NCBI GenBank assembly: GCA_964540475.1
Contig: CAZIMC010000001.1
Coordinates: forward strand, 204,056-268,055
Source: an uncultured Gammaproteobacteria bacterium
Lineage (GTDB): Bacteria > Patescibacteriota > Microgenomatia > UBA8517
Reading direction: 5' to 3'
DNA: 64,000 bases
How positions within the stretch are numbered: the first letter of the stretch is position 1; the number at the start of each line of letters is the position of its first letter. Shown here one piece after another: positions 28,608 to 43,744 of this stretch. Made by a program: the position numbers and the translations under genes. Under the pieces are notes generated by a model. It was not told the origin of the DNA, made no database searches, and worked only from the letters and a program-made list of their open reading frames with translations.

Positions 28608-31600
28608 ATGGCGTCCAACCTTACCCGACAACAGTTTGGAAAAAAAGAAAAAAACCTACCCGAACTTGATCTCTCGTTGATTCAACGAGAATCGTGGGAC
28701 TGGTTTTTGACGGAAGGAATCGCACAGGAATTAACTCAAATTTCCCCAATCGATGATTTTACAGGCAAGAATTGGCAACTTGTCTTGGGCGAGCACACAC
28801 TTGGTGAACCCCTCACAACTTCAAGAATCGCGCTTCAAAAAGGAATTACATACGCCTCTCAGCTTAAAATTTCAGCTACGTTGGTAAACAAACGAACAGG
28901 AAAAGAAGTGACTCAGGAAGTATTCTTAGGAGAACTTCCACAAATGACGTCCAGAGGGACATTTATTGTTAATGGAGTTGAGCGCGCAGTTATAAATCAA
29001 ATTGTAAGAAGTCCGGGAGTTTATTTTTCTGGAGAACTTGATGCTTCAACAGGAAGAATGCTCTATAAAGCAGAAGTGAGACCTCTTCATGGATCCTGGC
29101 TTGAGTTTGAGGTTTCAAAGGGAGACGTAATTTCAGCAAGAATTGACAGAAGAAGAAAAGTTGTTGCCACCGTTCTTCTTCGTGCAATGGGCATAGAAAG
29201 CGACAATGAAATCAGGCAAACGTTTAAGATGCTCGATATTGATCCACAGCATAAATACATTGAGAGCACAATTGCAAAAGACCCTACAAAGTCCCGCGAA
29301 GAAGCATTGATCGAGATATACAAAAAGTTAAGACCGGGAGAACCGGCTGTTTTGGAAAACGCTGAAAATCTATTTAATTCTCTATTTTTTGATTTTAGAA
29401 GATATGATTTAGGGAAGGTTGGACGATTTAAAATCAATAAAAGACTTGATCTAAATCTTCCTAACGACCGGTCAACGTGGGTTTTAACAAAACAGGATAT
29501 TGTTGGGGCAATAAATTATCTTATTGGTCTACAAAGGGGTATTGGCAGGGTCGATGATATAGATCACTTGGCCAACAGAAGACTTCGCAGAGTGGGAGAG
29601 TTGGTTGCGACAAATGCATTCAGAATCGGACTCATTAGGCTGGAGAGAAGCGTTAAGGAAAAGATGAGTTTAATTTCTGCTGACGATAGGCCACTCCCTG
29701 CAACCTTAATAAACGCAAGACCTCTAATTGCCGCGCTAAATGAATTCTTTAGAAGTAATCAGCTTTCAACTATCCTAGACGATACTAACCCATTAAGCGA
29801 GATTGATAACCTTAGGCGTGTGTCAGTTTTGGGTACAGGGGGCATAAACCGTGAAAGAGCAAGTTTTTCAATCCGTGACGTTAATTCATCGCAATATGGA
29901 AGAATTGATCCTGTTCGTTCTCCTGAAGGTCAAAACATTGGTTTGGTTACATACCTTGCGCTTTACACAAGAGTAAATGAATATGGATTCTTAGAAACAC
30001 CCTATCGCAAAGTCGAAAAGACAAAGTCCGGCAAGAAAGAGAAGGTCAAGGTAACTGATGAGGTTATTTATATCACAGCCGACGATGAGGAAACCTATCA
30101 CATTACCCATGCCGGGGTAAATATCGATGACGAAGGGTTTTTAACCGATGAGCGTGTTCCCTTGCGCTTCCAAGGGACGTTTACTGAAGGAGATGCTTCG
30201 CTTGTGGATCTTATTGATGTTACCCCAAGACAAGTTGTCGGAGTGTCGGCGTCGCTTATCCCATTTTTGGCACACGATGAAGGAAACCGCGCTCTTATGG
30301 GAAGCAACATGCAATGTCAGGCAGTTCCACTAGTTAACCCTGAATCACCTGTTGTTGGAACTGGTATGGAAGCGGAGGTCGCTGGGGCTATGCAAAGAGT
30401 TGTTAGAGCCAGAAATAGTGGAACTGTAGAGTATGCAGATGGTAATCGTATTGAGGTTAAGCTTGATAAGGCAATCGATCTTGATTCGACAGAGGATATT
30501 GAGGTTGCAAGCGGCGGGAAACAGGAAATTTATCACTTAGTTAAGTTTAAAAGAACTGCACATTCAACCTGCTATAACCCCCGAGTGGTAGTCAAAGCCG
30601 GAGATAAGGTGAAGCAAGGAGACTTGCTGGCGGATGGACCATCAGCCCAGGACGGAGAATTGGCGTTAGGCAGAAACCTTGTTATTGCATATATGTCATT
30701 TGAAGGATACGGTTTTGAAGATGCAATTTTAGTTTCAGATCGCCTTGTCAAAGAAGATTTACTAACTTCAGTCCATATAGAGGAATATGAGGCAGACGTA
30801 GTTGATACCAAACTTGGTCCGGAGGAGCTTACGCGGGATATTCCCAATGTTGCCGAAACGGAGCTTGCCAATCTGGCTGAGGATGGAATCGTTGTGATTG
30901 GGGCAGAAGTGGGGCCTAACGATATATTGGTCGGGAAGATTGCACCCAAAGGAGAGACAGAACTTACCTCAGAAGAACGGCTTTTGAGGGCAATTTTCGG
31001 TGAAAAGGCTCGTGAGGTTAGGGATACATCGCTTCGTGTCCCTCATGGAGAAAAAGGAATTGTTGTTGATGTTCAGATCCTAGACAAAGATAAAGGTGAT
31101 GAGTTGGGGCCAGGAATAATTAAAAAAGTAATTGTAAGGGTTGCGCAGATGAGAAAGATTACAGTGGGAGACAAGGTAGCGGGAAGGCATGGAAATAAGG
31201 GCGTTATTGCTAAAATTCTGCCAATTGCGGATATGCCTTATCTTGAAGATGGAACGCCTGTTGATATCATCATCTCACCTCTTTCGGTTTTAGCGCGTAT
31301 GAATCTGGGCCAGTTGCTTGAAGCACATCTCGGTTGGGCATTCGCCAAGAAAGGGGCCAAAGCCGCAATACCAGTATTTGAGAAGATGGGTGAAGAGACT
31401 ATAACCGAGGAGCTTAAAAAGGAAGGATTGCCGGTTAGCGGGAAAGTAAGACTTTACGATGGTAGAACTGGTGAATCATACAAAGAAGATACGGTTGTGG
31501 GTGTTGGATACATCATGAAACTTATCCATATGGTTGAGGATAAAACCCACGCCAGATCAACCGGACCGTACTCACTAGTTACACAACAACCTCTCGGTGG

Positions 31601-31982
31601 AAAGGCGCAAATGGGGGGACAGAGATTTGGAGAAATGGAGGTATGGGGACTGGAAGCTCATAGGGCAGCATACACCTTACAAGAGATGTTAACAATTAAA
31701 TCTGATGATATACTAGGCCGAGCTAGGGCATTTGAATCTATTGTTAAGGGAGAGGACATCCCCGAAGCAACAATTCCTGAGTCTTTCAAAGTATTGGTTC
31801 GGGAACTTAACTCGTTAGGACTTTCGGTTGATGCAAAGGGTGCAGTTATTGCCGCAGAAGAAGCTGAAGAAGAGACCAAAGAAGGCGAAGAGTTTGCCCA
31901 GGCAGTAGGTGCACAACTGGTTGCAGATGAAAGCATGACCGAACCGGCAAGCCCAATTGAGATTGAGGAGGTTAAAAGTTAA
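28608..31982 (+). CDS. rpoB: DNA-directed RNA polymerase beta subunit
   Basis: 1124 aa; conserved rif cluster and catalytic regions throughout. Confidence 0.97.
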   Translation: MASNLTRQQFGKKEKNLPELDLSLIQRESWDWFLTEGIAQELTQISPIDDFTGKNWQLVLGEHTLGEPLTTSRIALQKGITYASQLKISATLVNKRTGKEVTQEVFLGELPQMTSRGTFIVNGVERAVINQIVRSPGVYFSGELDASTGRMLYKAEVRPLHGSWLEFEVSKGDVISARIDRRRKVVATVLLRAMGIESDNEIRQTFKMLDIDPQHKYIESTIAKDPTKSREEALIEIYKKLRPGEPAVLENAENLFNSLFFDFRRYDLGKVGRFKINKRLDLNLPNDRSTWVLTKQDIVGAINYLIGLQRGIGRVDDIDHLANRRLRRVGELVATNAFRIGLIRLERSVKEKMSLISADDRPLPATLINARPLIAALNEFFRSNQLSTILDDTNPLSEIDNLRRVSVLGTGGINRERASFSIRDVNSSQYGRIDPVRSPEGQNIGLVTYLALYTRVNEYGFLETPYRKVEKTKSGKKEKVKVTDEVIYITADDEETYHITHAGVNIDDEGFLTDERVPLRFQGTFTEGDASLVDLIDVTPRQVVGVSASLIPFLAHDEGNRALMGSNMQCQAVPLVNPESPVVGTGMEAEVAGAMQRVVRARNSGTVEYADGNRIEVKLDKAIDLDSTEDIEVASGGKQEIYHLVKFKRTAHSTCYNPRVVVKAGDKVKQGDLLADGPSAQDGELALGRNLVIAYMSFEGYGFEDAILVSDRLVKEDLLTSVHIEEYEADVVDTKLGPEELTRDIPNVAETELANLAEDGIVVIGAEVGPNDILVGKIAPKGETELTSEERLLRAIFGEKAREVRDTSLRVPHGEKGIVVDVQILDKDKGDELGPGIIKKVIVRVAQMRKITVGDKVAGRHGNKGVIAKILPIADMPYLEDGTPVDIIISPLSVLARMNLGQLLEAHLGWAFAKKGAKAAIPVFEKMGEETITEELKKEGLPVSGKVRLYDGRTGESYKEDTVVGVGYIMKLIHMVEDKTHARSTGPYSLVTQQPLGGKAQMGGQRFGEMEVWGLEAHRAAYTLQEMLTIKSDDILGRARAFESIVKGEDIPEATIPESFKVLVRELNSLGLSVDAKGAVIAAEEAEEETKEGEEFAQAVGAQLVADESMTEPASPIEIEEVKS

Positions 31983-34900
31983 TGGAACCATTATCTGACC
32001 TTAAAACACTAACAGACTTTAAAAGTCTCGTATTAAGACTTGCGTCTTCTGAGGAAATCAGAAAGTGGTCCCGTGGAGAAGTAACCAAGCCCGAGACCAT
32101 CAACTACAGAACCCTAAAACCCGAAAAAGATGGTCTATTCGATGAGCGAATTTTTGGCCCAACAAAAGATTGGGAATGTTACTGTGGAAAATATAAAAGA
32201 ATTAGATATAAAGGTGTGGTTTGTGACAAATGTGGAGTTGAGGTCACCCAATCGCGAGTAAGGCGCGAAAGAATGGGACATGTTGCACTGGCGTGCCCTG
32301 TTGTACATGTTTGGTATTTCAAGGGTGCTCCCTCAAAAATCTCTTTACTTCTAGGAGTTGCACCACGTGCGTTGGAGCAGGTCATTTACTTTGCCCGCTA
32401 TTTGGTCACAGAAATTGACGAGCAGGGTAGAAAAGATGCCATTTCATCGCTCGAAAAAGCAGCCAAAGTACGCTTGGATGAGATAGCTCAAAACTACAAG
32501 GAAAGAAAAGAAATTTTGGCAAAGGAGTCAGTCGATGCGAAGCAGAAGATTCAAAACAAAATTAAAGACAAAGAACAGCTATCACTGGCTTTAAGCGAGG
32601 TTGACTTGGAATTCAGGAAGAAAGAGACGCTGCTCTCCGAAGAAGAACGCTCAACCATGGAAAAAACAAGCCAGCTATTTGAGAATTTGGCATCGGTTGT
32701 TAGGAGCCTTAAGCCACTTTCAGTTCTCTCTGAGGAGGAATATGATGAGCTGGCAAGTTATGAAGCAGAACGTTTCTTTACGGCTAAAATGGGGGCAGAT
32801 GCAGTAAGTACTGCTCTTGAAACAATTGATCTGGAAGCCATCTCTAAGGATTTGCGAGTGGAAATCGAAGAAGTTAAGGGAGGAGGAGCCAGATACACAA
32901 AGATTGCCAAGAGGCTAAAACTTATTGATGGTCTCAGGCGGGCAAAAATCGATCCGTCCTGGATGATTATGAAGGTTTTGCCAGTTTTGCCTCCCGACCT
33001 TAGGCCTATGGTTCAGCTTTCCGGTGGAAGATTTGCAACTAGCGATTTGAATGATTTATATAGAAGAGTTATTAACCGCAATAATCGCCTAAAGCACCTT
33101 ATTGGTTTGGGGGCTCCGGAGATAATACTCAGGAACGAAAAGAGAATGCTTCAAGAGGCAGTCGATTCGTTAATCGATGCTTCGCAAAGAAAGGCTGTCA
33201 GGCGGGGCCGAGGTAGACAGGTATTAAGATCGCTATCCGATATGCTTCGAGGAAAGCAGGGGAGATTTAGACAAAATTTGTTAGGTAAAAGAGTCGACTA
33301 TTCAGGACGAAGCGTTATTATAGTAGGCCCGGAACTTAAGCTCAATCAATGTGGTCTTCCGAAAGACATGGCTTTGGAGATGTTTAAGCCTTTTGTCCTT
33401 AAGGAAATGATAGTTCGGGGTATCGCACCTAACGTTAAAAGTGCTAAAAACATGCTCGAAAGAAGACCGGCTGAGGTCTTTGATATTTTGGAAGAGATTA
33501 CCAAAAATCATCCGATTTTGCTTAATCGTGCACCAACTTTACACAAGCTTTCTATCCAAGCATTTTACCCTGTCTTAATTGAGGGTAACGCAATTCGTGT
33601 TCACCCTGCAGTGTGTTCCGGGTTTAATGCAGACTTTGATGGAGACCAGATGGCCGTTCATATTCCCCTTTCAAAGAAAGCCGTCGAAGAAGCAAGAGCA
33701 CTTATGCTGCCTGAGAATAATTTACTAAGACCCGCGGATGGTACTCCAATTTCTGCTCCATCATCAAAAGAAATGGCTTTAGGGGTTTACTACCTAACAA
33801 GTGAAGACCCAAGAATCGAAAGCGGCGATTGGTTCTTTGCAGACAGCAACGAGGCAATATTGGCATATCAGGCTGGAAAGGTTGAATTGCGACAAAAAGT
33901 CAACGTACGTGTTAATGGTAAGGTTTTGGAAACAACCGCAGGACGCGTCATCTTCAATGAGGTTTTGCCCGAAAACTTCGAGTTTGTGAATGAGGCAATT
34001 ACCTCAACTGTCATTAAAAAGCTCTTCAGTAAAGCATATGCCACAGTTAGCAAAGAACGTGTTGTTCAAATGATTGATGCAATTAAAGATCTGGGCTTTA
34101 TGGGTGGCACACTGTCTGGCCTTTCTTTTGGAATAACAGACGCCAAGATTTTACCTGAAAAAGCGAAGCTCTTGGCCGATGCTAACGAGAGAATTAAAGA
34201 GATTGAGAGTAACTATGCCCAAGGGCTTATTACCTATGAGGAAAAGAAAAGGCTTACTCAGGAAATCTGGATCGAGGTAACAGAAGAGCTAGCGGATAAA
34301 ACCTGGGAAGCAATGGAGGCAACTAACTCGATTAAGCTTGTGATCGACGCAAAGGTTGGTCGTGCATCCAGGGATCAAGTTAAGCAGTTGGCAGCAATCC
34401 GAGGGCTTATCGTTGATCCATTAGGCAAGATTGTAGAACTACCAATCAAAAGCAATTTCCGTGAGGGACTTTCAGTTTTTGAATACGTCACATCTTCTCG
34501 GGGTTCGCGAAAGGGCCTTACTGATACAGCCATCAAGACCGCTGATGCAGGCTACTTAACTCGTAGGCTTGTCGATGTTGCACACGATCAGATTGTCCGG
34601 CTTGATGATTGTGGTTCTAGCGAAAAGTTCATAATCCAAAAGAGCATTAGGCCAACCAGTTTTGTGTTAAGGATTACAGGCAGATTTGCTGCGGAGGATA
34701 TTAATCTTAAGGACGGAAAGACTCTGGTTGCCCACAATGAAATTATAGATGAAGAGAAGGCTGCGCAAATTGACGAATCGGGTATTGAAAATGTGGCTGT
34801 TAGGTCGCCATTAACTTGTGTAAGCAGGTATGGAATTTGTGCTAAGTGTTATGGTTGGGACCTGTCCACAAAAAAGGTGGTGGATTTGGGGATGCCTGTT

Positions 34901-35719
34901 GGGGTTGTAGCTGCTCAGTCAATCGGTGAGCCAGGAACTCAGCTTACACTTAAAACTAAGCACTCCGGAGGAATTGTTGGGCTTGATGTTACACAAGGCC
35001 TTCCACGTGTTGAAGAGTTGGTTGAAGCCCGTGTGCCAAAAGTCCTAGCACCACTTGCTGAGATTTCAGGAAAAGTTACAGTTAATGAGGCAACTGAAGG
35101 ATGGAAGATTACCATAACCTCGGTTAATACCAAGCCAAAAGAGGAAAGAGAGTATATTATTCCTAAAACACTGAAATTAGCTGTAGAGGACAAGCAATTG
35201 GTGGATGCTGGTACACAGCTTGCAGCAGGATACCTGGATATTAAAGAGATTTTGTCTATCAAGGGCCTGCGAAGTGCCCAGGAATACCTGGTGAACGAGA
35301 TTCAAAGGGTGTATGAGTCGCAAGGAATTCCCATTAATGATAAGCATTTTGAGGTCATTGTAAGAAAGATGAGCGATGAGGTTAGGATTGTTACTCCTGG
35401 CGACACCAATTTCTTACCGGGCGAGCTTACCGCTAAAACTACTTTTGAAGAAGAAAATGAAAGAGTTTTAGCTGCAGGTGGAGAACCTGCAAGTGGCCAA
35501 CAGGTAATATTGGGTATCACCAGAAGATCGCTTTATACTGAAAGCTGGTTGTCTTCGGCCTCTTTTGAACAGACCACGGATGTTTTAACTGATGCATCTT
35601 TGCAGGCAAAAGAGGATAAATTGGCTGGTCTCAAAGAAAATGTAATTATTGGAAGACTTATACCAGTCACCCCAGACAGAGCGGCACTACCCACCTTGCC
35701 CACCGAGACTGTGCAGTGA
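31982..35719 (+). CDS. rpoC: DNA-directed RNA polymerase beta-prime subunit
   Basis: 1245 aa; zinc-binding CYCGKYKRIRYKGVVCDKCG and NADFDGDQM catalytic motif. Confidence 0.97.
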   Translation: MEPLSDLKTLTDFKSLVLRLASSEEIRKWSRGEVTKPETINYRTLKPEKDGLFDERIFGPTKDWECYCGKYKRIRYKGVVCDKCGVEVTQSRVRRERMGHVALACPVVHVWYFKGAPSKISLLLGVAPRALEQVIYFARYLVTEIDEQGRKDAISSLEKAAKVRLDEIAQNYKERKEILAKESVDAKQKIQNKIKDKEQLSLALSEVDLEFRKKETLLSEEERSTMEKTSQLFENLASVVRSLKPLSVLSEEEYDELASYEAERFFTAKMGADAVSTALETIDLEAISKDLRVEIEEVKGGGARYTKIAKRLKLIDGLRRAKIDPSWMIMKVLPVLPPDLRPMVQLSGGRFATSDLNDLYRRVINRNNRLKHLIGLGAPEIILRNEKRMLQEAVDSLIDASQRKAVRRGRGRQVLRSLSDMLRGKQGRFRQNLLGKRVDYSGRSVIIVGPELKLNQCGLPKDMALEMFKPFVLKEMIVRGIAPNVKSAKNMLERRPAEVFDILEEITKNHPILLNRAPTLHKLSIQAFYPVLIEGNAIRVHPAVCSGFNADFDGDQMAVHIPLSKKAVEEARALMLPENNLLRPADGTPISAPSSKEMALGVYYLTSEDPRIESGDWFFADSNEAILAYQAGKVELRQKVNVRVNGKVLETTAGRVIFNEVLPENFEFVNEAITSTVIKKLFSKAYATVSKERVVQMIDAIKDLGFMGGTLSGLSFGITDAKILPEKAKLLADANERIKEIESNYAQGLITYEEKKRLTQEIWIEVTEELADKTWEAMEATNSIKLVIDAKVGRASRDQVKQLAAIRGLIVDPLGKIVELPIKSNFREGLSVFEYVTSSRGSRKGLTDTAIKTADAGYLTRRLVDVAHDQIVRLDDCGSSEKFIIQKSIRPTSFVLRITGRFAAEDINLKDGKTLVAHNEIIDEEKAAQIDESGIENVAVRSPLTCVSRYGICAKCYGWDLSTKKVVDLGMPVGVVAAQSIGEPGTQLTLKTKHSGGIVGLDVTQGLPRVEELVEARVPKVLAPLAEISGKVTVNEATEGWKITITSVNTKPKEEREYIIPKTLKLAVEDKQLVDAGTQLAAGYLDIKEILSIKGLRSAQEYLVNEIQRVYESQGIPINDKHFEVIVRKMSDEVRIVTPGDTNFLPGELTAKTTFEEENERVLAAGGEPASGQQVILGITRRSLYTESWLSSASFEQTTDVLTDASLQAKEDKLAGLKENVIIGRLIPVTPDRAALPTLPTETVQ

Positions 35720-35751
35720 TACAATACTGTGTTACATAAGGGAAAACAGAT

Positions 35752-36204
35752 ATGCCAACAGTAAATCAATTAGTTCGAAAAGGTCGTAAACAAATAAAGA
35801 AAAAGGAAAGCACCACTTCTCTTAAAAAGTGGTTTAGTGCAAAAGATAGGAAATTTTCCGAATTTTCATCCCCTTTAAAACGAGGGGTAGTTCTTTCTGT
35901 GCGCACAATGACACCCAGAAAGCCAAATTCGGCTCTTAGAAAAGTTGCCAGAGTTAGACTTTCTAATAAGCAGGAAATTACTGCTTATATTCCCGGCGAA
36001 GGCCATGAATTGGCAGAACATTCAATTGTCTTAGTTCGCGGTGGTAAGGTTAAGGATTTGGCAGGAGTTAAATTCCATGTGGTGAGAGGAAAATATGACA
36101 CAACTGGGGTTGTGGGAAGACAGCGTGGTAGAAGCAAATACGGAACAAAGAAAGGAGGCGGTGGCGCAGCTCCAAAAGCAGCTGGTGCGCCAGCAGAAGG
36201 ATAA
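35752..36204 (+). CDS. rpsL: 30S ribosomal protein S12 with a short N-terminal insertion and a Gly/Ala-rich C-terminal extension
   Basis: [11 protein letters not shown] start, [24 protein letters not shown]. Confidence 0.95.
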
Positions 36205-36205
36205 T

Positions 36206-36685
36206 ATGGCAAGACGAGGCGGAGTGCGACCAAGAAAGATCGACCCAGATCCAATTTATGGAAGCGCTGTAGTTACCAAGCTTATAAACAGGCTGATGAA
36301 AGATGGCAAGAAAAGCGTAATTCAAAAGCAGGTATATAACGCTTTTGAGTTGATTAAAGAAAAAACGGGGGAAGATCCTTTAAAAGTTTTTGAGACGGCA
36401 ATGGAAAACATTAAACCGACAATGGAAGTTCGCCCAAGAAGAGTTGGCGGTGCAGCTTATCAGGTTCCAATGAGTGTCCGTGGGCCAAGACGCGAATCTT
36501 TGGCAATTCGCTGGCTAGCACAAGCCGCAAATTCAAGGAGCAATTCCGAATACCATACATTTGCTGAAAAATTGGCAGCTGAAATTATAGATGCTAAAGA
36601 AGGAGAAGGGGCAGCTATGAAGAAAAAACAAGACATGGAACGTTCAGCTGAAGCCAACCGCGCCTTTGCCCACTTCAGGTGGTAA
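36206..36685 (+). CDS. rpsG: 30S ribosomal protein S7
   Basis: MARRGGVRPRKIDPDPIYGS...; the track ORF starting at 36095 overlaps rpsL, so the in-frame ATG at 36206 is preferred. Confidence 0.93.
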   Translation: MARRGGVRPRKIDPDPIYGSAVVTKLINRLMKDGKKSVIQKQVYNAFELIKEKTGEDPLKVFETAMENIKPTMEVRPRRVGGAAYQVPMSVRGPRRESLAIRWLAQAANSRSNSEYHTFAEKLAAEIIDAKEGEGAAMKKKQDMERSAEANRAFAHFRW

Positions 36686-36704
36686 ATCAACCTCATCCTA
36701 GACC

Positions 36705-37727
36705 ATGACAGCAGACAATGTTCCTAGCAAACGCCCCGATCTTGACATAGAGTTGACCCCCACAGGTATTCGAAATTTAATGGGTGAAATACAAAAGCGT
36801 GGTTTTCATCCATTAACCGAAGAAGGAGAGAATAAAGAAATTGCCAACTTACAAGCTCATGAATTTTTAAATTTTGTACAGGTGGTGCTTGATAGAATTG
36901 GAGTAAGACAACACGAGGTGGACAAAACTTTAGCCCTTGATTTGGGTGGGCAGGATCCAGACTGGGATAAAATTTTAAAAACAATATGGAACAAACGAGC
37001 GAAGGTTTGGGGTTGGGTCGAAACCCCAACCAACTATTTTGCCACCTTTAGCACTTTAGTGGAGCACTTTGAAACCGACAACAATCAACGTAAGAAAGAG
37101 AGAATAGCTAGCTTAGGCTCTGGCCCAGGATTGTACGAGGCATACCTTATGTATTTGCTCTCACGAGTAGGAGGCCATCAAAATGTAGAAATGTATTGTG
37201 TTGATTTTGCTCGCGAGATGACTGCAATCAATTCACGAATATTAAAATTGTATAAAGATGAAAGCGGCAAAATGATACAAAACACTAGAGCTTTAACTGG
37301 CGATATGACGAATTTAGATTTTCCTGATAATCATTTTAATCAAATTATATGCAATAACGCACTACAATGGACCCAAAACTGGAAAGACGCAGTTTCTGAA
37401 ATGGCACGTGTTCTTAATCCCCAAGGCCTTGGAGTTTTGTATATTTTTATTAATCGCCATCCTATGAGATTGATTAATCAGGAAACTAACGAAGTTATGT
37501 TGAGTATTGGGGGTATTGATCCAGCAGAGTTATTTGATGCACTGGAAGAAAAGAACTTCCAAATTGAGCGAACCAGGCAATATCGCACCGCAAAAGGTTT
37601 GGGCCAAATGGGTGGAACATCAGACAGAATGTTCATTAAAGCAAGACTGAGCAAAGACGGAACTGTTAATAGTTGGAGGCAAGCTAATATTGGATATTCG
37701 GTGTCAACCTGGGAATCTGGTAGGTGA
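36705..37727 (+). CDS. Class I SAM-dependent methyltransferase with an unrecognised ~135-aa N-domain, inserted between rpsG and fusA
   Basis: Motif I SLGSGPGLYEAYL, acidic motif II (CVDFA), motif IV-like NNALQW; 340 aa. Confidence 0.7.
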   Translation: MTADNVPSKRPDLDIELTPTGIRNLMGEIQKRGFHPLTEEGENKEIANLQAHEFLNFVQVVLDRIGVRQHEVDKTLALDLGGQDPDWDKILKTIWNKRAKVWGWVETPTNYFATFSTLVEHFETDNNQRKKERIASLGSGPGLYEAYLMYLLSRVGGHQNVEMYCVDFAREMTAINSRILKLYKDESGKMIQNTRALTGDMTNLDFPDNHFNQIICNNALQWTQNWKDAVSEMARVLNPQGLGVLYIFINRHPMRLINQETNEVMLSIGGIDPAELFDALEEKNFQIERTRQYRTAKGLGQMGGTSDRMFIKARLSKDGTVNSWRQANIGYSVSTWESGR

Positions 37728-37767
37728 GTTGTTGATTTAGATATTGAACACTGTTAAAATTGTTAAA

Positions 37768-37792
37768 GCTTCCGATAGGAAGCGATTTTTTT
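37768..37792 (+). terminator. Intrinsic terminator after the methyltransferase gene (GCTTCC-GATA-GGAAGC plus T7)
   Basis: Perfect 6-bp GC-rich stem, 4-nt loop, then GATTTTTTT. Confidence 0.6.
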
Positions 37793-37872
37793 GACAGGCT
37801 AGTCCATAGCGCACAGAGCATAGGTCAGTTTTCTATGCACTATGAGCTGTGTACTAATTATTAAGCAAACTC

Positions 37873-40041
37873 ATGGCAGAAGCAGCAAAAAAGAAAAGCT
37901 CAATGGTTTTAACGGTCACAAAAGACCGAACTGTTCCATTGGAGAAACTCCGAAATATCGGCATTATCGCCCATATCGATGCAGGTAAAACTACTACAAC
38001 TGAAAGAATACTTTACGAAACAGGGAAAACTTACAAACTTGGTTCAGTTGATGAAGGCACAACTGTTACTGACTGGATGGAGCAGGAGAGGGAGCGCGGA
38101 ATTACAATCGTTTCGGCGGCAATTACAACATTTTGGGATATCAAAGAAACAACTTCAGTCGAGGCGGGCCACTACCGGGTTAATATTATTGATACCCCAG
38201 GACACATCGATTTTACCGCAGAAGTTGAACGATCATTAAGGGTTTTAGACGGGGCAGTAATGGTTTTTGACGGAAGAACGGGAGTTGAGAGTCAGTCGGA
38301 AACTGTCTGGAGACAAGCAGATAAATACAATGTGCCAAGGATTTGTGTTTTGAACAAATTAAATTTGATAGGCGCTGATTTTGAAGGAAGCCTTAAGTCG
38401 ATTCGAGAAAGGTTGGGAGCAAATGCGGCTCCAGTTATTTATCCAATAGGACAAGAACACGCACACCGAGGAGTAATCGATTTAATCAAAATGAAAGCGT
38501 TTACCTTCGAAAATGTAAACGACAATGCGCTTAAAGAAGAAGAAATTCCAGCAGACTTTCTTGACACAGCACAAAAATACAGAGCCGATTTAATTGAAAA
38601 GATTGCAGAATATGACGATGAGGCCTTGAATAAGTATCTGGAGGGGCAAGAGCTAACCGAAGTTGATATCAAAAGAGCCATAAGAAAAGGTGTAGTTGCC
38701 GGCCGCTTTTTCCCGATATTCGGAGGAGATAATAGAACCGCCGAAACTCAACTTTTGTTAAATGGAGTGGTTGAATACCTGCCTTCTCCCTTGGATCTTC
38801 CTGCAGTCGAAGGAACTAATCCACAAACTGGCGAAAAGGAAAAGAGAGAGCGCAAGAACGAAGAAAGCTTTTCTGCTTTAGCCTTTAAAGTTATTACAGA
38901 TCCGCACGTAGGACGTTTGGTTTATTTAAGAATCTATTCAGGAACGCTTAAGACTGGGCAAACTATCTACAATACCACCAAAAAGACCCAGGAAAGAATT
39001 GGGAAATTAGTGCTTTTGCATGCTGACCAGAGAGAACTTATCGAAGAGGCTTTTTCGGGAGAAATTGTTGCCGCGGTTGGAATTAAAGATACTACAACCG
39101 GTGATACGGTTTGTGATCCAAACAAGCAGATTTTACTTGAATCCATAAGTTTTCCTGAGCCAGTTATATCTCTTGCTATTGAGCCGGCTACAAAGACAGA
39201 CCAGGAAAAGATGGGTACTGCTTTGCAAAAGCTATCAGACGAAGACCCGACATTTACAATTAAAAGTAATCCTGAAACAGGGCAAACTATTATTTCCGGA
39301 ATGGGTGAGTTGCAACTTGAAGTTCTTGTAGACCGCATGAAGAGGGAATTTAATGTTGTAGCTACAACCGGTGCGCCCCAAGTTGCATACAAAGAAACAA
39401 TTAAAAGAACTGGTCAAGGAGAAGGAAAGTATATTCGCCAAACTGGTGGTCGGGGACAATATGGACACTGTTTGCTTCGCATAGAACCAAAAGGACGCGG
39501 CGAAGGGTTCGAATTTAAGAGCGAGATTAAGGGAGGAGCAATTCCACAAGAATTTATTGCACCAATTGAAAAAGGTGTTAAGGAAAAATTGGATAACGGA
39601 ATATTGGCAGGCTTCCCGTTAGTTGACGTATTTGTTGCAGTGTATGACGGGTCATTCCACGATGTAGATTCCTCTGAAATGGCCTTTAAGATTGCCGGAT
39701 CCATGGCTGTTGAAGATGCTGCTAAAAGGGCCGAAATGGTTCTTCTTGAGCCTATAATGAAGGTTGAGGTTTTTACTCCGGCTGAGTTTATGGGGGACGT
39801 TATGGGAGACCTTTCAAGTAAACGCGCCCAAATTAGCGGAACAGAAGAAAAAGCAGGCGAAACTGTAATTTACGCAACAGCTCCTTTGGCCGAGCTTTCA
39901 GGATATGCAACCAAGTTAAGGTCCTTAACCCAGGGAAGGGCACGAGCATATGTTGAGCCAAGTCATTACGAGGAGGTTCCAAGCCATATTGCTGCTCAAA
40001 TTGTCGCAAAGAGCGGCAAAGCCCCTATTAGTGCGAGTTGA
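37873..40041 (+). CDS. fusA: Elongation factor G
   Basis: G domain AHIDAGKTTTTE, DTPGH, NKLN; 722 aa, full-length. Confidence 0.97.
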   Translation: MAEAAKKKSSMVLTVTKDRTVPLEKLRNIGIIAHIDAGKTTTTERILYETGKTYKLGSVDEGTTVTDWMEQERERGITIVSAAITTFWDIKETTSVEAGHYRVNIIDTPGHIDFTAEVERSLRVLDGAVMVFDGRTGVESQSETVWRQADKYNVPRICVLNKLNLIGADFEGSLKSIRERLGANAAPVIYPIGQEHAHRGVIDLIKMKAFTFENVNDNALKEEEIPADFLDTAQKYRADLIEKIAEYDDEALNKYLEGQELTEVDIKRAIRKGVVAGRFFPIFGGDNRTAETQLLLNGVVEYLPSPLDLPAVEGTNPQTGEKEKRERKNEESFSALAFKVITDPHVGRLVYLRIYSGTLKTGQTIYNTTKKTQERIGKLVLLHADQRELIEEAFSGEIVAAVGIKDTTTGDTVCDPNKQILLESISFPEPVISLAIEPATKTDQEKMGTALQKLSDEDPTFTIKSNPETGQTIISGMGELQLEVLVDRMKREFNVVATTGAPQVAYKETIKRTGQGEGKYIRQTGGRGQYGHCLLRIEPKGRGEGFEFKSEIKGGAIPQEFIAPIEKGVKEKLDNGILAGFPLVDVFVAVYDGSFHDVDSSEMAFKIAGSMAVEDAAKRAEMVLLEPIMKVEVFTPAEFMGDVMGDLSSKRAQISGTEEKAGETVIYATAPLAELSGYATKLRSLTQGRARAYVEPSHYEEVPSHIAAQIVAKSGKAPISAS

Positions 40042-40132
40042 AATTAGGTATTGACATAGCAATTCGGGCTTTAATATAATACGGACACTGAGGGCAATTT
40101 AAGCCCTCGTTTTATTGTAAAAGCTTACGGCT

Positions 40133-40166: not shown

Positions 40167-41360
40167 ATGGCAGCAGATACAAAACAAAAATTTGACAGAA
40201 GCAAACCGCACGTAAATGTTGGAACTATTGGTCACGTTGACCATGGTAAGACCACATTAACCTCAGCAATCACAATGGTTTTGGCAAAGCAGGGTTTGGC
40301 CCAGGCCAGAAAATATGAAGACATTGATTCGGCTCCCGAAGAAAAAGAAAGAGGAGTCACAATCAATATTTCTCACCAAGAATACGAAACCGAAAAAAGG
40401 CATTATGCCCACATCGATGCCCCGGGACATGCTGACTACATTAAAAACATGATTACGGGTGCCGCACAAATGGATGGGGCAATTTTAGTTGTCTCAGCGG
40501 CTGATGGACCAATGCCTCAAACTCGTGAGCACGTCATTTTAGCAAGGCAAGTTAATGTTCCAGCTTTAGTTGTCTTTTTGAATAAAGTTGACACAGTTGA
40601 TGATCCCGAAATTGTTGATTTGGTTGAGGCAGATATTCGTGATCTTCTTAAGAAATACGAATACCCGGGAGATGAGGTTCCAGTTATAAGGGGAAGCGCC
40701 CTCAAAGCAACAGAAGGGGACGCCGAAGCTGAAAAGCAAATTTTAGAGCTTATGAAGGCAGTTGATGAATATATCCCAGACCCACAACGCGAAGTTGATA
40801 AACCCTTCTTGATGCCGGTTGAGGATGTATTTACAATTCAGGGACGCGGAACAGTTGTAACCGGTCGGGTTGAGCGCGGTAAATTGGCCTTAAACGAGGA
40901 AATTGAGATCGTTGGACTCAGGGACACTAAAAAGACGGTTGTTACCGGAATCGAAATGTTCCACAAGATGCTTGACGAAGCTCAAGCTGGGGACAACACA
41001 GGACTGCTTCTAAGAGGAGTTGAAAAAACAGAAATTGAGCGCGGACAAGTTCTTGCAAAGACTGGCTCAGTGACACCACACACAGAATTTGAGGCAGAAG
41101 TATATATTTTGAGCAAGGACGAAGGTGGACGTCATACACCATTCTTTACGGGATACAAGCCACAATTTTTCATCCGCACAGCAGATGTAACCGGTGAGGT
41201 GACACTTCCGGAAGGAATTGAGATGGTTATGCCTGGAGATAACGCAAAGATGAAGGTTAAACTCATGAAACCGGTCGCCATGGAAGAAGGGCTTAGATTT
41301 GCAATCAGAGAAGGTGGATCAACAGTTGGGGCAGGAGTTATCACAAAGATATTAGCCTGA
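40167..41360 (+). CDS. tuf: Elongation factor Tu
   Basis: [31 protein letters not shown]; the track ORF at 40134 begins on a TTG; the ATG at 40167 matches the canonical EF-Tu N-terminus. Confidence 0.96.
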
Positions 41361-41386: not shown

Positions 41387-41695
41387 ATGCCAGTAGGTAG
41401 ACTTAGAGTCAAGCTCAAAAGCTATGACCACCGTCTTATAGACGAAGTGGCAGGCAAGATATTAGATACAGCTCTGGCAACTGGTGCAAAAGTAAAAGGC
41501 CCCATTCCTCTTCCTACTCAAAGAAGTATAATCTCTGTTAAGGAATCTCCGTTCAAGCATAAAGATGCGCAAGAACATTTTGAAATTTTAGTCCATAAAA
41601 GACTAATCGATCTTTTAGACCCTTCTGAGCGTACAATTGATTCTCTAAGCAACCTCGACCTCCCCGCAGGAGTAAGTATTGAAATAAAAATGTAA
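41387..41695 (+). CDS. rpsJ: 30S ribosomal protein S10
   Basis: 102 aa; RLRVKLKSYDHRLIDEV... Confidence 0.95.
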   Translation: MPVGRLRVKLKSYDHRLIDEVAGKILDTALATGAKVKGPIPLPTQRSIISVKESPFKHKDAQEHFEILVHKRLIDLLDPSERTIDSLSNLDLPAGVSIEIKM

Positions 41696-41725: not shown

Positions 41726-42799
41726 ATGTCAGAAGATGGCGCATCAAAGTATATTCAGGTAACTCATTCGGATCTTGAGCCAGATATAAAAATAACAGAA
41801 GCCGAACTTGCGCCTGATATACAAATAATGAATGACGAGCTTGCTAATTCCCCAGAAATTAGAATAACACGCAAGGATCTCGCAAGAAATCCACTCGAGT
41901 GGCTTCAAGCAACCTATCGCGACACAAGAGAAAGACTTACAGATAATTTGAATTGGTGGGGGAATATGGCCAAACAAAAGCTAGATGCTTACAAAAGAGT
42001 AGATCGCGAACGCAGAGACGTAGAAGGCATTGTAGTTACTATACTTAATACCCGTGGGGAAAAGGAACCGCAATCATGGGAAACATTAACAGAAAGAGAT
42101 TTGGGTGATGCAGAAAGCGAAGCAATCGGCTTAACTAAAGAAGAGCTGCTAAGTGAACTTACGCTCACATTGGAAGAGTTGGACAGGGGTGTTCGGCCCG
42201 ATCGTACTGCAATTCAACAGTATATTCGAGAACTTTCACAACTACACGAAAGACAAGCTGCAGAAGCAAATAGAATCTATGGTAGCAGAGAATTTTCCAC
42301 ACCCATCAGAATGGAGAACCACCGGAGTCAACAGTATTTGTTTCGGGCGAAAGACGGTAGATCCATATCTACCTGTGTAATTGCCTCAACCCTAAATGGT
42401 TTAACTGCGCTTGGTATTGCCCAATCCCAAGAAACCGAAGACACAGTAATTGACGCCATTGGAGGAGTTCGGGAATTTGACGAGAGGGGTTATCTTGAAA
42501 TGGGCAAGGTGGAAGGTTATTTAAGAGAAAGAGGTACACGCTTATCAAGATCAGGTAATATACTGGAGTTGTTGCAGAGTCTGGAGAATGGAGGAGTTGC
42601 AATTATCGCATATGGAGGTCACGCAAGATTAATTTCCGGAGCTGAGTCGCAAAATGGTCAGGTTATGTTACGTGAACACGATCCACTGAATACGAATGTA
42701 CGATTAGTGCCAGTTTCAGAGATGGTCACGAGGGTTAACAGTACTGAGATGTATCTTAATTTGTTACTTATCGAGAGAAATCCTTCATCTGTTCGTTAG
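41726..42799 (+). CDS. Hypothetical protein inserted between rpsJ and rplC: N-terminal 9-11-aa tandem repeats and a C-terminal putative Cys/His/Asp (papain-like?) domain
   Basis: Repeats DLEPDIKIT / ELAPDIQIM / ELANSPEIRIT. C-terminal candidate catalytic residues STCVIAST ... AYGGHARLISG ... REHDP; 357 aa. Confidence 0.5.
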   Translation: MSEDGASKYIQVTHSDLEPDIKITEAELAPDIQIMNDELANSPEIRITRKDLARNPLEWLQATYRDTRERLTDNLNWWGNMAKQKLDAYKRVDRERRDVEGIVVTILNTRGEKEPQSWETLTERDLGDAESEAIGLTKEELLSELTLTLEELDRGVRPDRTAIQQYIRELSQLHERQAAEANRIYGSREFSTPIRMENHRSQQYLFRAKDGRSISTCVIASTLNGLTALGIAQSQETEDTVIDAIGGVREFDERGYLEMGKVEGYLRERGTRLSRSGNILELLQSLENGGVAIIAYGGHARLISGAESQNGQVMLREHDPLNTNVRLVPVSEMVTRVNSTEMYLNLLLIERNPSSVR

Positions 42800-42949: not shown

Positions 42950-43744
42950 ATGTTAAACGCAATGATCGGATCAAAAGTCGGAATGAATCAGTCCTTTATT
43001 GAAGGGAGAAGGATTCCAGTGACCAAAATTGTTGTTGGTCCCTGTGTGGTTACACAAGTCAAAAAACAGGAAAAGGATGGTTATTGGGCAATACAACTAG
43101 GATTTGGAAGCAGAAAAGCCAAGCATACTTCCAAAGCTCTTCAAGGACACTTCAAGGAAATTCAAAGTTCAAAAATCAAAAATCAAAATGAAAAGACTAA
43201 GACTACAAATTACCCCCGACACTTAAGAGAAATTAGACTAGAAAAAGAGCCCGACTTTAAAGTTGGAGACGTGATAAACGTCTCCGATGTTTTTAAGAGA
43301 GGGGATATTATTGCCGTTACCGGAGTTTCAAAAGGCAAGGGTTTTGCAGGAGGAGTTAAAAGATGGGGTTTTGCAGGTGGCTCAAGGACTCATGGCCAGA
43401 GCGACCGTGAACGTGCACCTGGTTCAATTGGTCAAGGAACAACTCCCGGAAGAGTATTAAAAGGCAAGAAGATGGCCGGCAAAATGGGAGATGAGCAGGT
43501 AACTGTTAAAAATCTTCAGATTGTAGCTGTCAATCATGACGTTAACGAAATTGAAATAAGCGGACCAGTACCCGGAAGACCGGAAGGACTGTTAATTATT
43601 CGTAAAATCGCTGAAGGTAAATTAGAGGGTATTCAGGAAGTTCAAGCACAAGTGGTTGAGGGTGAAGGTGGAGAAGAAGCGGGCGAAGGAGCAGAAAGCT
43701 CGGAGAAACCACAAGAAGTAAAGGAGGAACAGGCTAATGGCTAA
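42950..43744 (+). CDS. rplC: 50S ribosomal protein L3 with an internal insertion and an acidic C-terminal tail
   Basis: FAGGVKRWGFAGGSRTHGQSDRERAPGSIG core. Confidence 0.95.
   Translation: MLNAMIGSKVGMNQSFIEGRRIPVTKIVVGPCVVTQVKKQEKDGYWAIQLGFGSRKAKHTSKALQGHFKEIQSSKIKNQNEKTKTTNYPRHLREIRLEKEPDFKVGDVINVSDVFKRGDIIAVTGVSKGKGFAGGVKRWGFAGGSRTHGQSDRERAPGSIGQGTTPGRVLKGKKMAGKMGDEQVTVKNLQIVAVNHDVNEIEISGPVPGRPEGLLIIRKIAEGKLEGIQEVQAQVVEGEGGEEAGEGAESSEKPQEVKEEQANG
43169..43189 (+). repeat. Three tandem heptamers TCAAAAA/TCAAAAT within the rplC insertion
   Basis: Read directly. Confidence 0.8.

What the first reader, a model, noticed from the sequence alone, without database searches (positions are those of the whole stretch)
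36705..37792. SAM-dependent methyltransferase with a novel N-domain, plus its own terminator, inserted into the str operon between rpsG and fusA
rpsL-rpsG-fusA-tuf is normally contiguous. Here a 340-aa class I methyltransferase (motif I SLGSGPGLY) with an unrecognised ~135-aa N-domain follows rpsG by 19 nt. It is then followed by a strong intrinsic terminator (37768-37792) that transcriptionally separates fusA-tuf from rpsL-rpsG. A methyltransferase co-expressed with S12/S7 is a candidate rRNA, r-protein or elongation-factor methyltransferase, possibly aminoglycoside-related given the S12 K42R-equivalent noted separately.
Basis: partly seen in the sequence, partly recalled or inferred. Interest (0 to 1): 0.6.

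Follow-up and report, generated by a model that had tools for sequence, protein, structure and literature searches.

The report
Uncharacterised methyltransferase inside the str operon
A Woesebacteria-like (candidate phyla radiation) bacterium carries an intact SAM-dependent methyltransferase of an uncharacterised family between ribosomal protein S7 and EF-G, in an insertion-prone spacer, and the "terminator" after it is an older fusA promoter/hairpin module that relatives without the enzyme also have.

Summary
The sequence observation holds. A 340-aa ORF (36705-37727) starts 19 nt after rpsG, has intact class I SAM-binding motifs, and is followed by a hairpin plus T7 (37768-37792) before fusA.

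It belongs to a small uncharacterised family: about 70 clusters at 50% identity among 1.84 billion representatives, with source names that are mostly Patescibacteria. It scores far below every curated family cut-off; BioC is best at 57 bits against 185.

The insertion is not a chimera. A 60%-identical homolog from forest soil also follows the S7 C-terminus. A 34%-identical homolog in a groundwater contig lies in rpoC-rpsL-rpsG-MT-fusA, with its ATG overlapping the rpsG stop.

The insertion is patchy. The closest relatives (EF-G about 90% identical) lack it, one carries unrelated ORFs at the same junction, and at least 13 other family members lie in unrelated neighbourhoods.

The terminator is not the gene's own. 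The same extended -10, hairpin and T-run module precedes fusA in relatives without the methyltransferase.

Nothing supports an aminoglycoside or rRNA methyltransferase. The S12 K42R-equivalent also occurs in relatives that have no methyltransferase at this junction.

Best reading: an accessory methyltransferase expressed as the third cistron of an rpsL-rpsG unit. The substrate is unknown, and the link to translation rests on position alone.

The parts
35696..35725 (+). Promoter-like site for rpsL (TTGCCC-18-TACAAT with TG, giving the extended -10 TGATACAAT at 35717-35725)
   Evidence: Promoter scan. A TGGTAAAAT extended -10 lies at the equivalent place in L029 and L030. Function is inferred.
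35752..36204 (+). rpsL (S12, 150 aa), first cistron of the proposed unit
   Evidence: Pfam Ribosom_S12_S23, 113.8 bits.
36206..36685 (+). rpsG (S7, 159 aa), second cistron
   Evidence: 100% match to P0164 with Pfam PF00177; 80-82% identical to Woesebacteria S7.
36686..36704 (+). 19-nt rpsG-MT spacer with no promoter-like or terminator-like site
   Evidence: Sequence and scan. The equivalent spacer is 30 nt in L007. In L022 there is no spacer: the MT ATG lies inside the last rpsG codons (ATGGTAA; MT starts at 5878, rpsG ends at 5884).
36705..37727 (+). Methyltransferase ORF, 340 aa (includes stop). Aa 1-85 are a family-specific helical extension, aa 86-130 are canonical N-terminal cap helices, and aa 131-315 are the seven-strand Rossmann core with a beta5/6 hairpin insertion.
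37110..37139 (+). Motif I SLGSGPGLYE (SAM-binding glycine loop). S136, G138, G140, P141, G142, L143, Y144 and E145 are invariant in 22 homologs.
   Evidence: Alignment A1.
37350..37370 (+). Motif after beta4, CNNALQW. C216, N217 and N218 are invariant; L220, Q221 and W222 are conserved in at least 90%.
   Evidence: Alignment A1.
37732..37760 (+). fusA promoter-like site: TTGATT, 17 nt, TAAAAT, with the extended -10 TGTTAAAAT at 37752-37760
   Evidence: Scan. TG-TA-AATT is invariant in 5 aligned loci, 3 of them without the MT.
37768..37792 (+). Hairpin GCTTCC-GATA-GGAAGC followed by GA and T7. It is an intrinsic-terminator-like element that would also be the 5'-terminal stem-loop of a transcript started at the adjacent promoter.
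   Evidence: Three different stem sequences occupy the same position in relatives.
37800..37856 (+). Second, long imperfect hairpin in the fusA leader
   Evidence: Fold. The 3' arm is partly shared with L030. It is not repeated elsewhere in the window and matches no Rfam family.
37873..40041 (+). fusA (EF-G, 722 aa)
   Evidence: 90% identical to EF-G of L030, which carries the Pfam EF-G domains.

Best explanation
The ORF encodes an active class I SAM-dependent methyltransferase of a small, uncharacterised family that evolves faster than the flanking core genes and whose few source names are mostly Patescibacteria. Members of the family normally sit as stand-alone accessory genes in variable neighbourhoods. 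In one sub-lineage of Woesebacteria-like bacteria, a member was captured into the spacer between the rpsG stop codon and a pre-existing fusA promoter/hairpin module. That spacer tolerates insertions because fusA has its own promoter. The gene has no promoter of its own. It is transcribed by read-through as the third cistron of an rpsL-rpsG-MT unit that starts at the extended -10 promoter at 35696-35725 and ends at the hairpin+T7 at 37768-37792. Its translation follows S7, and in the L022 relative it is coupled by an overlapping stop and start. Its level is therefore tied to S12/S7 synthesis. Chemically it transfers a methyl group from SAM to a substrate held in a pocket capped by the N-terminal helices and the beta5/6 hairpin. 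The substrate is not known. The fold and profile matches are closest to small-molecule or carboxyl-type enzymes (BioC, UbiE, ArsM, NNMT, PMT), and the family has neutral charge, which makes an rRNA substrate the least likely option. Shown: gene order, family membership, motif conservation, patchy synteny, and conservation of the promoter/hairpin module without the gene. Inferred: co-transcription, termination, hitch-hiking as the reason for the location, and the substrate class.
For: Class I fold and SAM motifs: Pfam, a confident AF2 model with pLDDT 88 and pTM 0.89, and 738 PDB fold matches at E<=0.001, with the 50 listed being class I methyltransferases or close relatives. Distinct small family: 22 word-index hits; 72 clusters at E<1e-30 among 1.84e9 representatives; invariant SLGSGPGLYE, CNN, GQ and W324, with R325 conserved in at least 90%. 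Purifying selection: pN 0.26 against pS 0.78 versus L007. Composition is like the neighbours: GC3 0.349 against 0.347 for fusA. The insertion is real and recurs: L007 has the S7 C-terminus, 30 nt, then a 60%-identical MT; L022 has rpoC-rpsL-rpsG-MT-fusA with overlapping ATGGTAA. Patchiness and hot spot: L029 and L031 have rpsG, 100 nt, fusA; L030 has unrelated 67-aa and 174-aa ORFs at the same junction and a 239-aa ORF between fusA and tuf; L032 and L033 are canonical; the window also has a 357-aa orphan ORF between rpsJ and rplC. Other family members lie next to unrelated genes: tRNAs, MFS transporter, Ro60/TROVE, HAD hydrolase, pyruvate kinase, PBP. The promoter/hairpin module is conserved without the MT. 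No promoter-like site lies between 35725 and 37732. The family is charge-neutral: median pI 7.07 and net charge 0; the window protein has pI 6.0.
Against: Two divergent members of the same family (34% identical, never sister in 100 NJ bootstraps) occupy exactly the same junction, and one is translationally coupled to rpsG. That is more than a random hitch-hiker model predicts, and it hints at a functional tie to the operon's products. No transcript data exist, so co-transcription and termination are not shown. A hairpin 7-8 nt downstream of a -10 element is an unusual arrangement, and its role (terminator, 5' stabiliser or attenuator) is untested. Patescibacteria are generally described as lacking quinone and biotin pathways (background knowledge, not tested here), so the small-molecule enzymes that score best are poor functional models. 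Only contigs, not whole genomes, were available for the relatives, so a copy elsewhere in the 'MT-less' relatives cannot be excluded.
Confidence: 0.5

Rival explanations
1. It is a dedicated methyltransferase of a protein made from, or working with, this operon: the N-terminus or a flexible tail of S7, S12, EF-G or EF-Tu. It would work like EftM or PrmA, and it is kept next to rpsG so that enzyme and substrate are made together.
For: The same junction is occupied by two divergent family members. The stop and start overlap with rpsG in L022. The P0001-P0003 str-linked clade has 100% bootstrap support and has persisted to 51-60% identity under purifying selection. The architecture (class I core, N-terminal helices, beta5/6 hairpin, conserved beta6/7 loop GxGQxGG) has the same elements as the modelled EF-Tu Lys5 methyltransferase EftM. 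EftM's own closest structure is a small-molecule enzyme, so a small-molecule-like fold does not exclude a protein substrate (10.1101/773556).
Against: At least 13 distinct family loci are nowhere near translation genes. The closest relatives of the window by EF-G lack the gene at this junction. Unrelated ORFs fill the same and neighbouring spacers. There is no sequence or profile hit to PrmA, PrmB or any other protein methyltransferase family.
Confidence: 0.28
2. It is an rRNA or tRNA methyltransferase acting on the 30S subunit during assembly with S12/S7, but not one conferring resistance.
For: Some Methyltransf_11-type enzymes act on RNA. Weak hits include a PHROG family named 'tRNA methyltransferase' (E 0.0015), CmoM for the L022 protein (E 0.085), and METTL6 and a Trm112-partner methyltransferase among the fold matches. 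There is also the operon position.
Against: The family is charge-neutral, and the window protein is acidic (pI 6.0, net -4). No RNA-binding domain is present. No curated rRNA or tRNA methyltransferase family hits the window protein at E<=1. The best fold matches are small-molecule enzymes with capped pockets.
Confidence: 0.1
3. It is an aminoglycoside-resistance 16S rRNA methyltransferase (m7G1405 ArmA/Rmt type or m1A1408 NpmA/KamB type) linked to the S12 K42R-like change.
For: Only its position next to rpsL/rpsG and the R at the K42-equivalent of S12.
Against: No Pfam or NCBIfam hit to any such family at E<=1, although NCBIfam is understood to include resistance models (the inclusion is from background knowledge). 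None appears in the top 50 fold matches. The S12 R (and A at the P90-equivalent) is also found in L029 and L030, which have no MT at this junction, and L022 has R with a very different MT.
Confidence: 0.02
4. It is an assembly or binning artefact, with a foreign gene joined into the operon by mis-assembly.
For: The gene's GC is slightly lower (0.40 against 0.43-0.45 for neighbours). No close genome was found in the species-representative collection.
Against: Three independent assemblies from different sources show rpsG followed by the MT: this NCBI genome, ENA forest soil (L007) and groundwater (L022). GC3 equals that of fusA.
Confidence: 0.01

Closest known systems
Generic Methyltransf_11/25 class I SAM-dependent methyltransferases (for example B. 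subtilis YcgJ 1xxl and B. thuringiensis 3l8d)
   Same: Seven-strand Rossmann core, glycine-rich motif I, an acidic residue after beta2, and N-terminal cap helices. Pfam scores are above cut-off. These are the best PDB sequence matches (E 4e-8 and 9e-7) and 3l8d is the best fold match (Foldseek E 1.4e-11).
   Different: The window protein has an extra helical extension of about 85 aa. It also has the family-specific invariant signatures YE after motif I, CNN, GxGQxGG in the beta6/7 loop, and a C-terminal W324 (with R325 in at least 90%). Identity to these relatives is only 14-19%, and they are themselves of unknown function.
BioC (malonyl-ACP O-methyltransferase) and other small-molecule methyltransferases (UbiE/MenG, ArsM)
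   Same: BioC is the best curated-family hit (TIGR02072) for both the window protein (57 bits) and the L022 protein (43 bits). A BioC structure (8x8j) is among the fold matches. From memory only, the CNNALQW motif resembles the motif after beta4 in BioC and Tam.
   Different: Scores are far below the cut-offs (57 against 185; UbiE 28 against 158-378). No biotin or quinone genes were seen in any neighbourhood. The N-terminal extension and the C-terminal signature are absent from those families.
EftM, the Pseudomonas aeruginosa EF-Tu Lys5 trimethyltransferase
   Same: Same kind of architecture as described for the EftM model: a class I core embellished by an N-terminal helix, a beta5/6 linker sheet and a beta6/7 linker around a substrate channel. 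EftM's nearest structural relative is also a small-molecule enzyme (10.1101/773556). Both would have a link to a str-operon product.
   Different: eftM is not described as a str-operon gene. The N-terminal extension here is much longer (six helices). No evidence exists for an EF-Tu substrate.
Canonical str operon (rpsL-rpsG-fusA-tuf)
   Same: Same gene order and strand. Relatives L032 and L033 have the uninterrupted form.
   Different: Here and in L007 and L022 a methyltransferase gene sits between rpsG and fusA. In this lineage fusA and tuf are each preceded by a promoter-like site followed by a hairpin+T-run, so the 'operon' is probably several transcription units.

Membership tests
Class I (Rossmann-fold) SAM-dependent methyltransferase superfamily, Methyltransf_11/25 | Pfam domain score above the gathering threshold | tested here: met
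   PF08241 scores 48 bits against 21.2; PF13649 scores 44.2 against 27.
Class I (Rossmann-fold) SAM-dependent methyltransferase superfamily, Methyltransf_11/25 | Seven-strand beta sheet with a glycine-rich motif I and an acidic residue at the end of beta2 | tested here: met
   The AF2 model (pLDDT 88) has strands at 132-137, 161-167, 194-198, 213-217, 244-250, 285-294 and 307-315. GSGPG and D167 are invariant. The listed fold matches are class I methyltransferases or close relatives.
Class I (Rossmann-fold) SAM-dependent methyltransferase superfamily, Methyltransf_11/25 | Binds SAM and transfers a methyl group | not testable with these tools
   Needs a biochemical assay.
BioC (TIGR02072 equivalog) | Score at or above the curated cut-off of 184.95 bits | tested here: not met
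   56.9 bits, covering only profile positions 22-137 of 244.
UbiE/MenG quinone C-methyltransferases | Score at or above the curated cut-offs (158-378 bits) | tested here: not met
   27-28 bits. Pfam Ubie_methyltran scores 18.8 against 20.1.
16S rRNA aminoglycoside-resistance methyltransferases (ArmA/Rmt m7G1405; NpmA/KamB m1A1408) | Sequence or fold similarity to those families | tested here: not met
   No such family at E<=1 in Pfam or NCBIfam. None in the top 50 Foldseek PDB matches.
Ribosomal-protein methyltransferases PrmA and PrmB/HemK type | PrmA (PF06325) or MTS-type domain with an (N/D)PPY motif IV | tested here: not met
   No Pfam or NCBIfam hit. The motif after beta4 is CNNALQW, not (N/D)PPY.
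EftM-type EF-Tu methyltransferase | Sequence homology to EftM and methylation of the EF-Tu N-terminal lysine | not tested
Only an architectural resemblance from the paper's description.
str operon member (co-transcribed with rpsL-rpsG) | Same strand, short spacer, no intervening promoter or terminator, terminator after the gene | tested here: met
   A 19-nt spacer with no predicted sites between 35725 and 37732, and a hairpin+T7 at 37768-37792. Overlapping stop and start in L022. Actual transcripts were not tested.
str operon member (co-transcribed with rpsL-rpsG) | Conserved synteny across relatives | tested here: inconclusive
   Present in L007 and L022, and probably in the P0003 contig. Absent in L029, L030, L031, L032 and L033.

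The most novel reading that the evidence does not exclude
Divergent members of one CPR-specific methyltransferase family were recruited independently at least twice to the same rpsG-fusA junction, once with translational coupling to S7. The reason would be that the family methylates a component of the translation machinery encoded there (S7, S12, EF-G or EF-Tu). That would define a new family of translation-apparatus methyltransferases in Patescibacteria, whose ribosomes are already known to be atypical.
Probability: 0.22. Interest if true: 0.65.

Novelty: new member of a known kind. Interest (0 to 1): 0.35.

Why it matters
If the position is only hitch-hiking, this is an ordinary accessory methyltransferase. 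The useful lessons are then about genome architecture. In these reduced genomes the str and S10 clusters are broken into several promoter/hairpin-bounded units. Their spacers act as landing pads for lineage-specific genes, which gain expression tied to S12/S7 synthesis. If the position is functional, the family would be a new ribosome or elongation-factor modifying enzyme restricted to candidate phyla radiation bacteria. Translation in these bacteria is poorly understood and cannot yet be studied in culture. The conserved arrangement of an extended -10, then a hairpin and U-tract at the 5' end of the transcript, upstream of fusA and in a related form upstream of tuf, is a testable candidate for a combined terminator and 5'-stabiliser or attenuator.

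Tried and rejected
1. Aminoglycoside-resistance or rRNA methyltransferase, PrmA and PrmB: no Pfam or NCBIfam hits at E<=1 and none among the top fold matches. Rejected.
2. Link to the S12 K42R-equivalent: the same S12 variant is found in L029 and L030, which have no MT at this junction. Rejected.
3. 'Own terminator': the same module exists without the gene. Rejected.
4. Mobile-element or phage origin: no relatives in IMG/VR; only weak generic PHROG and PADLOC hits (mad2 at 30.9 bits is the generic MTase core); no flanking repeats; composition like the neighbours. No support.
5. Conserved partner gene across the family: an all-against-all comparison of neighbours found only two sporadic shared neighbours, L024/L026 (57% identical, weak Response_reg-like) and L002/L020 (46%, unknown), and no translation genes.
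6. Trm112-like small partner: the 59-aa ORF abutting the L008 homolog has no Pfam hit.
7. Known cis-regulatory RNA in the MT-fusA spacer: no Rfam hit at gathering score, and only chance sub-threshold hits. The second hairpin is not a dispersed repeat.
8. The N-terminal 135 aa alone against PDB sequences: nothing.
9. The species-representative genome scan found no close relative, not even the source genome.
11. Literature searches for a methyltransferase in the str operon, or in Woesebacteria or CPR ribosomal clusters, found nothing relevant.
12. dN/dS could not be computed because synonymous sites are saturated; only pN much lower than pS is reported.
Full report
**1. What is in the sequence**

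The ORF list and raw sequence give this order on the + strand:
- rpoB 28608-31982
- rpoC 31982-35719
- rpsL 35752-36204
- rpsG 36206-36685 (the 196-aa ORF listed from 36095 is the same frame read from an upstream ATG inside rpsL)
- a 340-aa ORF at 36705-37727
- fusA 37873-40041
- tuf, about 40167-41360
- rpsJ 41387-41695
- an orphan 357-aa ORF at 41726-42799
- rplC 42950-43744

The gap between rpsG and the ORF is 19 nt. The start MTADN... is conserved in the closest homolog. A hairpin GCTTCC-GATA-GGAAGC followed by GA and T7 lies at 37768-37792 and folds at -10.2 kcal/mol. The stretch spanning the MT-fusA spacer (37725-37875, 151 nt) folds much better than shuffles (z = -5.1). It contains a second long hairpin at about 37800-37856.

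**2. What the protein is**

- Pfam places aa 136-242 in Methyltransf_11/25 above threshold.
- Every curated NCBIfam hit is far below its cut-off. BioC is best at 56.9 bits against 185, followed by the DVU_1556 family, UbiE, ArsM and MpqE.
- No rRNA, ribosomal-protein or resistance methyltransferase family appears at E<=1.
- An AlphaFold2 model built on 22 homologs is confident (pLDDT 88.2, pTM 0.89). It is one globular unit with six N-terminal helices (19-121), a seven-strand Rossmann core and a beta-hairpin insertion after beta5.
- Foldseek against the PDB returns only class I enzymes and close relatives at TM <= 0.49 normalised to the query. The best are uncharacterised type-11 proteins (3l8d, 3sm3). 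Then come SpnF, a Trm112-partner methyltransferase, NNMT, phosphoethanolamine methyltransferases and BioC.
- A PDB profile search agrees (YcgJ E 4e-8). It shows that residues about 86-135 align to the normal N-terminal helices of such proteins.
- The family-specific extension is thus about 85 aa, not about 135. Many family members lack the first ~40 residues.

**3. The family**

- The word-indexed search found 22 proteins, full length and 33-60% identical. The few source names are generic: 'Patescibacteria group bacterium', one 'Chlamydiae bacterium' MAG, and a JGI 'UbiE' label.
- The exhaustive profile search of 1.84 billion representatives found 72 clusters at E<1e-30 and 134 at E<1e-10.
- The alignment shows invariant S136, G138, G140-E145, D167, C216-N218, D278, E281, R291, G300-Q301, R308 and W324. 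Conserved N-terminal positions include the invariant E106 and T114, plus F54, W95, Y111 and T117 (at least 90%).
- Between the window and the 60% homolog, pN is 0.26 and pS is 0.78, which indicates purifying selection. Synonymous sites are saturated.
- The family is charge-neutral: median pI 7.07, and the window protein has pI 6.0.
- No relatives were found in IMG/VR.

**4. Synteny, the decisive comparison**

The window's S7 is 80-82% identical to *Candidatus* Woesebacteria S7.

Family members at this junction:
- The 60%-identical homolog P0002 (L007, forest soil) is preceded by ...ANRAFAHFRW*, the S7 C-terminus, then 30 nt.
- The 51% homolog P0003 has a partial gene ending 25 nt upstream and another starting 75 nt downstream.
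- L022 (groundwater; P0021, 34% identical) carries rpoC (71%), rpsL (73%), rpsG (71%), MT, then fusA (79%). The MT ATG overlaps the rpsG stop codon in AGATGGTAA.

The insertion is therefore real and not a chimera.

Relatives without it:
- L029 and L031 (EF-G about 90% identical): rpsG, 100 nt, fusA.
- L030 (rpoC 83%, EF-G 90%): an unrelated 67-aa ORF and a reverse-strand 174-aa ORF at this junction, plus a 239-aa ORF between fusA and tuf. None has a Pfam hit.
- L032 and L033 (EF-G 82%): canonical.

Other family members lie in unrelated contexts:
- beside an M16 peptidase/prepilin peptidase gene cluster
- near Ro60/TROVE
- near an MFS transporter, Der and Pth
- near small hypothetical genes and a resolvase
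- near PriA
- near a HAD hydrolase and an Lnb_N-domain protein
- next to pyruvate kinase
- next to a penicillin-binding protein
- next to a Methyltransf_33-like gene
- between tRNA genes

In an NJ tree, P0001, P0002 and P0003 form a clade with 100% bootstrap support. Its neighbours P0004 and P0030 are not str-linked. P0021 never joins the clade (0 of 100 replicates), although it sits on a long branch. Either the family entered this junction twice, or it entered once and was lost several times, with fast evolution in L022. The MT dN of 0.72 is about three times that of rpoC and S7.

**5. The 'terminator' is not the gene's own**

I compared the sequence upstream of fusA in five loci:
- Window: TGTTAAAAT, 7 nt, GCTTCC-GATA-GGAAGC, then GA and T7.
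- L029 (no MT): TGGTACAAT, then AGCTTCC-ACAA-GGAAGC, GA and T7.
- L030 (different insert): TGATAGAAT, then the same hairpin.
- L031 (no MT): TGATACAAT, then GTCCCGT-AAT-ACGGGAC, G and T7.
- L022 (MT): TGATACAAT, then TCCGCC-GTTGG-GGCGGA and TTTTCG.

The columns TG-TA-AATT and the T-run are invariant. Three different stem sequences keep a 6-7 bp GC-rich hairpin of -9.4 to -11.8 kcal/mol. A TTGnnn -35 lies 17 nt upstream in the window, L029 and L022.

The methyltransferase therefore sits between the rpsG stop and an older module of promoter plus hairpin/T-run. A similar module precedes tuf in the window and in L033: a perfect TTGACA-18-TATAAT at 40051-40080, then a hairpin at 40089-40109 and a T-run. 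rpsL has its own extended -10 at 35717-35725, conserved in relatives.

My inference is that transcription runs rpsL-rpsG-MT and stops at the hairpin, and that fusA is re-initiated from the adjacent promoter. The same hairpin would then be the 5'-terminal stem-loop of the fusA mRNA. No transcript data were available. No Rfam family matches.

**6.

- Aminoglycoside link: the S12 K42-equivalent is R, and the P90-equivalent is A, in the window and also in L029 and L030, which have no MT at this junction. L022 has R and S, and L033 has K and P. The S12 variants do not track the methyltransferase.
- Resistance, rRNA and PrmA families: no similarity.
- A protein substrate from the operon remains possible. 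The published EftM model has the same kinds of embellishment (N-terminal helix, beta5/6 sheet, beta6/7 linker), and its nearest structure is a small-molecule enzyme (10.1101/773556). A small-molecule-like fold is therefore not evidence against a protein substrate. Equally, nothing beyond position supports one.

**7. Verdict**

This is an intact accessory class I SAM-dependent methyltransferase of an uncharacterised family that is probably Patescibacteria-restricted. It is embedded as a third cistron after rpsL-rpsG, in a spacer that in this lineage repeatedly accepts foreign ORFs. It lies upstream of a conserved fusA promoter/hairpin module.

My estimates:
- about 0.5 for expression hitch-hiking with an unrelated substrate (small molecule or peptide)
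- about 0.28 for a genuine S7, S12, EF-G or EF-Tu methyltransferase
- about 0.1 for an RNA methyltransferase
- about 0.02 for aminoglycoside resistance
- about 0.01 for an artefact

Novelty: a new member of a known kind.

Interest is 0.35. The recurrence of the family at one junction and the promoter-hairpin module raise it. The generic fold, the patchy synteny and the lack of any functional evidence lower it.

Noticed in passing
window 41726-42799 (+): A 357-aa ORF lies between rpsJ and rplC. It has no hit in Pfam, NCBIfam, PADLOC, PHROGs or PDB sequences. It is absent from the Woesebacteria relative L033, where rpsJ and rplC are 85 nt apart. By eye, the C-terminal half has a Cys...His...Asp spacing (STCVIAS / GGHARL / HDP) reminiscent of a papain-like peptidase; this was not tested.
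   Followed up: partly
window 40051-40117 (+); L033 about 7670-7740: A perfect TTGACA-18-TATAAT promoter consensus between fusA and tuf is followed by a hairpin (TGAGGGC-7 nt-GCCCTCG) and a T-run. The same arrangement of promoter then hairpin/T-run precedes tuf in L033. Placing a promoter upstream of a terminator-like hairpin is unusual, and it recurs at the fusA junction.
   Followed up: partly
window 35752-36204 (rpsL): S12 has R at the K42-equivalent (TPRKPNSA) and A at the P90-equivalent (KDLAGV); from background knowledge, both are classic streptomycin-phenotype positions. It also has an N-terminal insertion of about 13 aa and a Gly/Ala/Pro-rich C-terminal tail. The R/A pair is shared with L029 and L030. 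L022 has R/S, and L033 has the usual K/P.
   Followed up: partly
L030 5481-6426 and 8589-9308: The closest long relative (EF-G 90% identical) carries unrelated orphan ORFs in str-operon spacers: 67 aa (+) and 174 aa (-) between rpsG and fusA, and 239 aa (-) between fusA and tuf. None has a Pfam hit, and the 174-aa ORF also has no NCBIfam hit. The spacers of this operon appear to be insertion-prone in the lineage.
   Followed up: partly
window 37800-37856 (+): A long imperfect hairpin lies in the fusA leader between the T-run and the start codon. Its 3' arm (CTATGCACT.TG..CTGTG.ACTA) is shared with L030, but it is absent from L029, L031 and L022, which have short leaders. It is not repeated in the window and has no Rfam match.
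   Followed up: partly
L024 5068-5865 (-) and L026 2507-3424 (+); L002 7153-7761 and L020 4757-5434: Two pairs of otherwise unrelated family loci share a neighbouring gene. One is a protein 57% identical between loci with a weak, sub-threshold Response_reg match, directly adjacent to the methyltransferase. The other is a protein of unknown function, 46% identical. These are possible sporadic partners of the family.
   Followed up: no
L034 1-109 and 1094-1536: The methyltransferase homolog P0030, a neighbour of the str-linked clade in the tree, appears to be flanked by tRNA genes, judged by eye from the sequence (no tRNA scan was run). No str genes are nearby.
   Followed up: no
window 37011-37031 (+): A terminator-like hairpin (GGTTGGG-TCGAAAC-CCCAACC) followed by a weak T-rich tail lies inside the methyltransferase ORF. 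It is probably a chance match.
   Followed up: no
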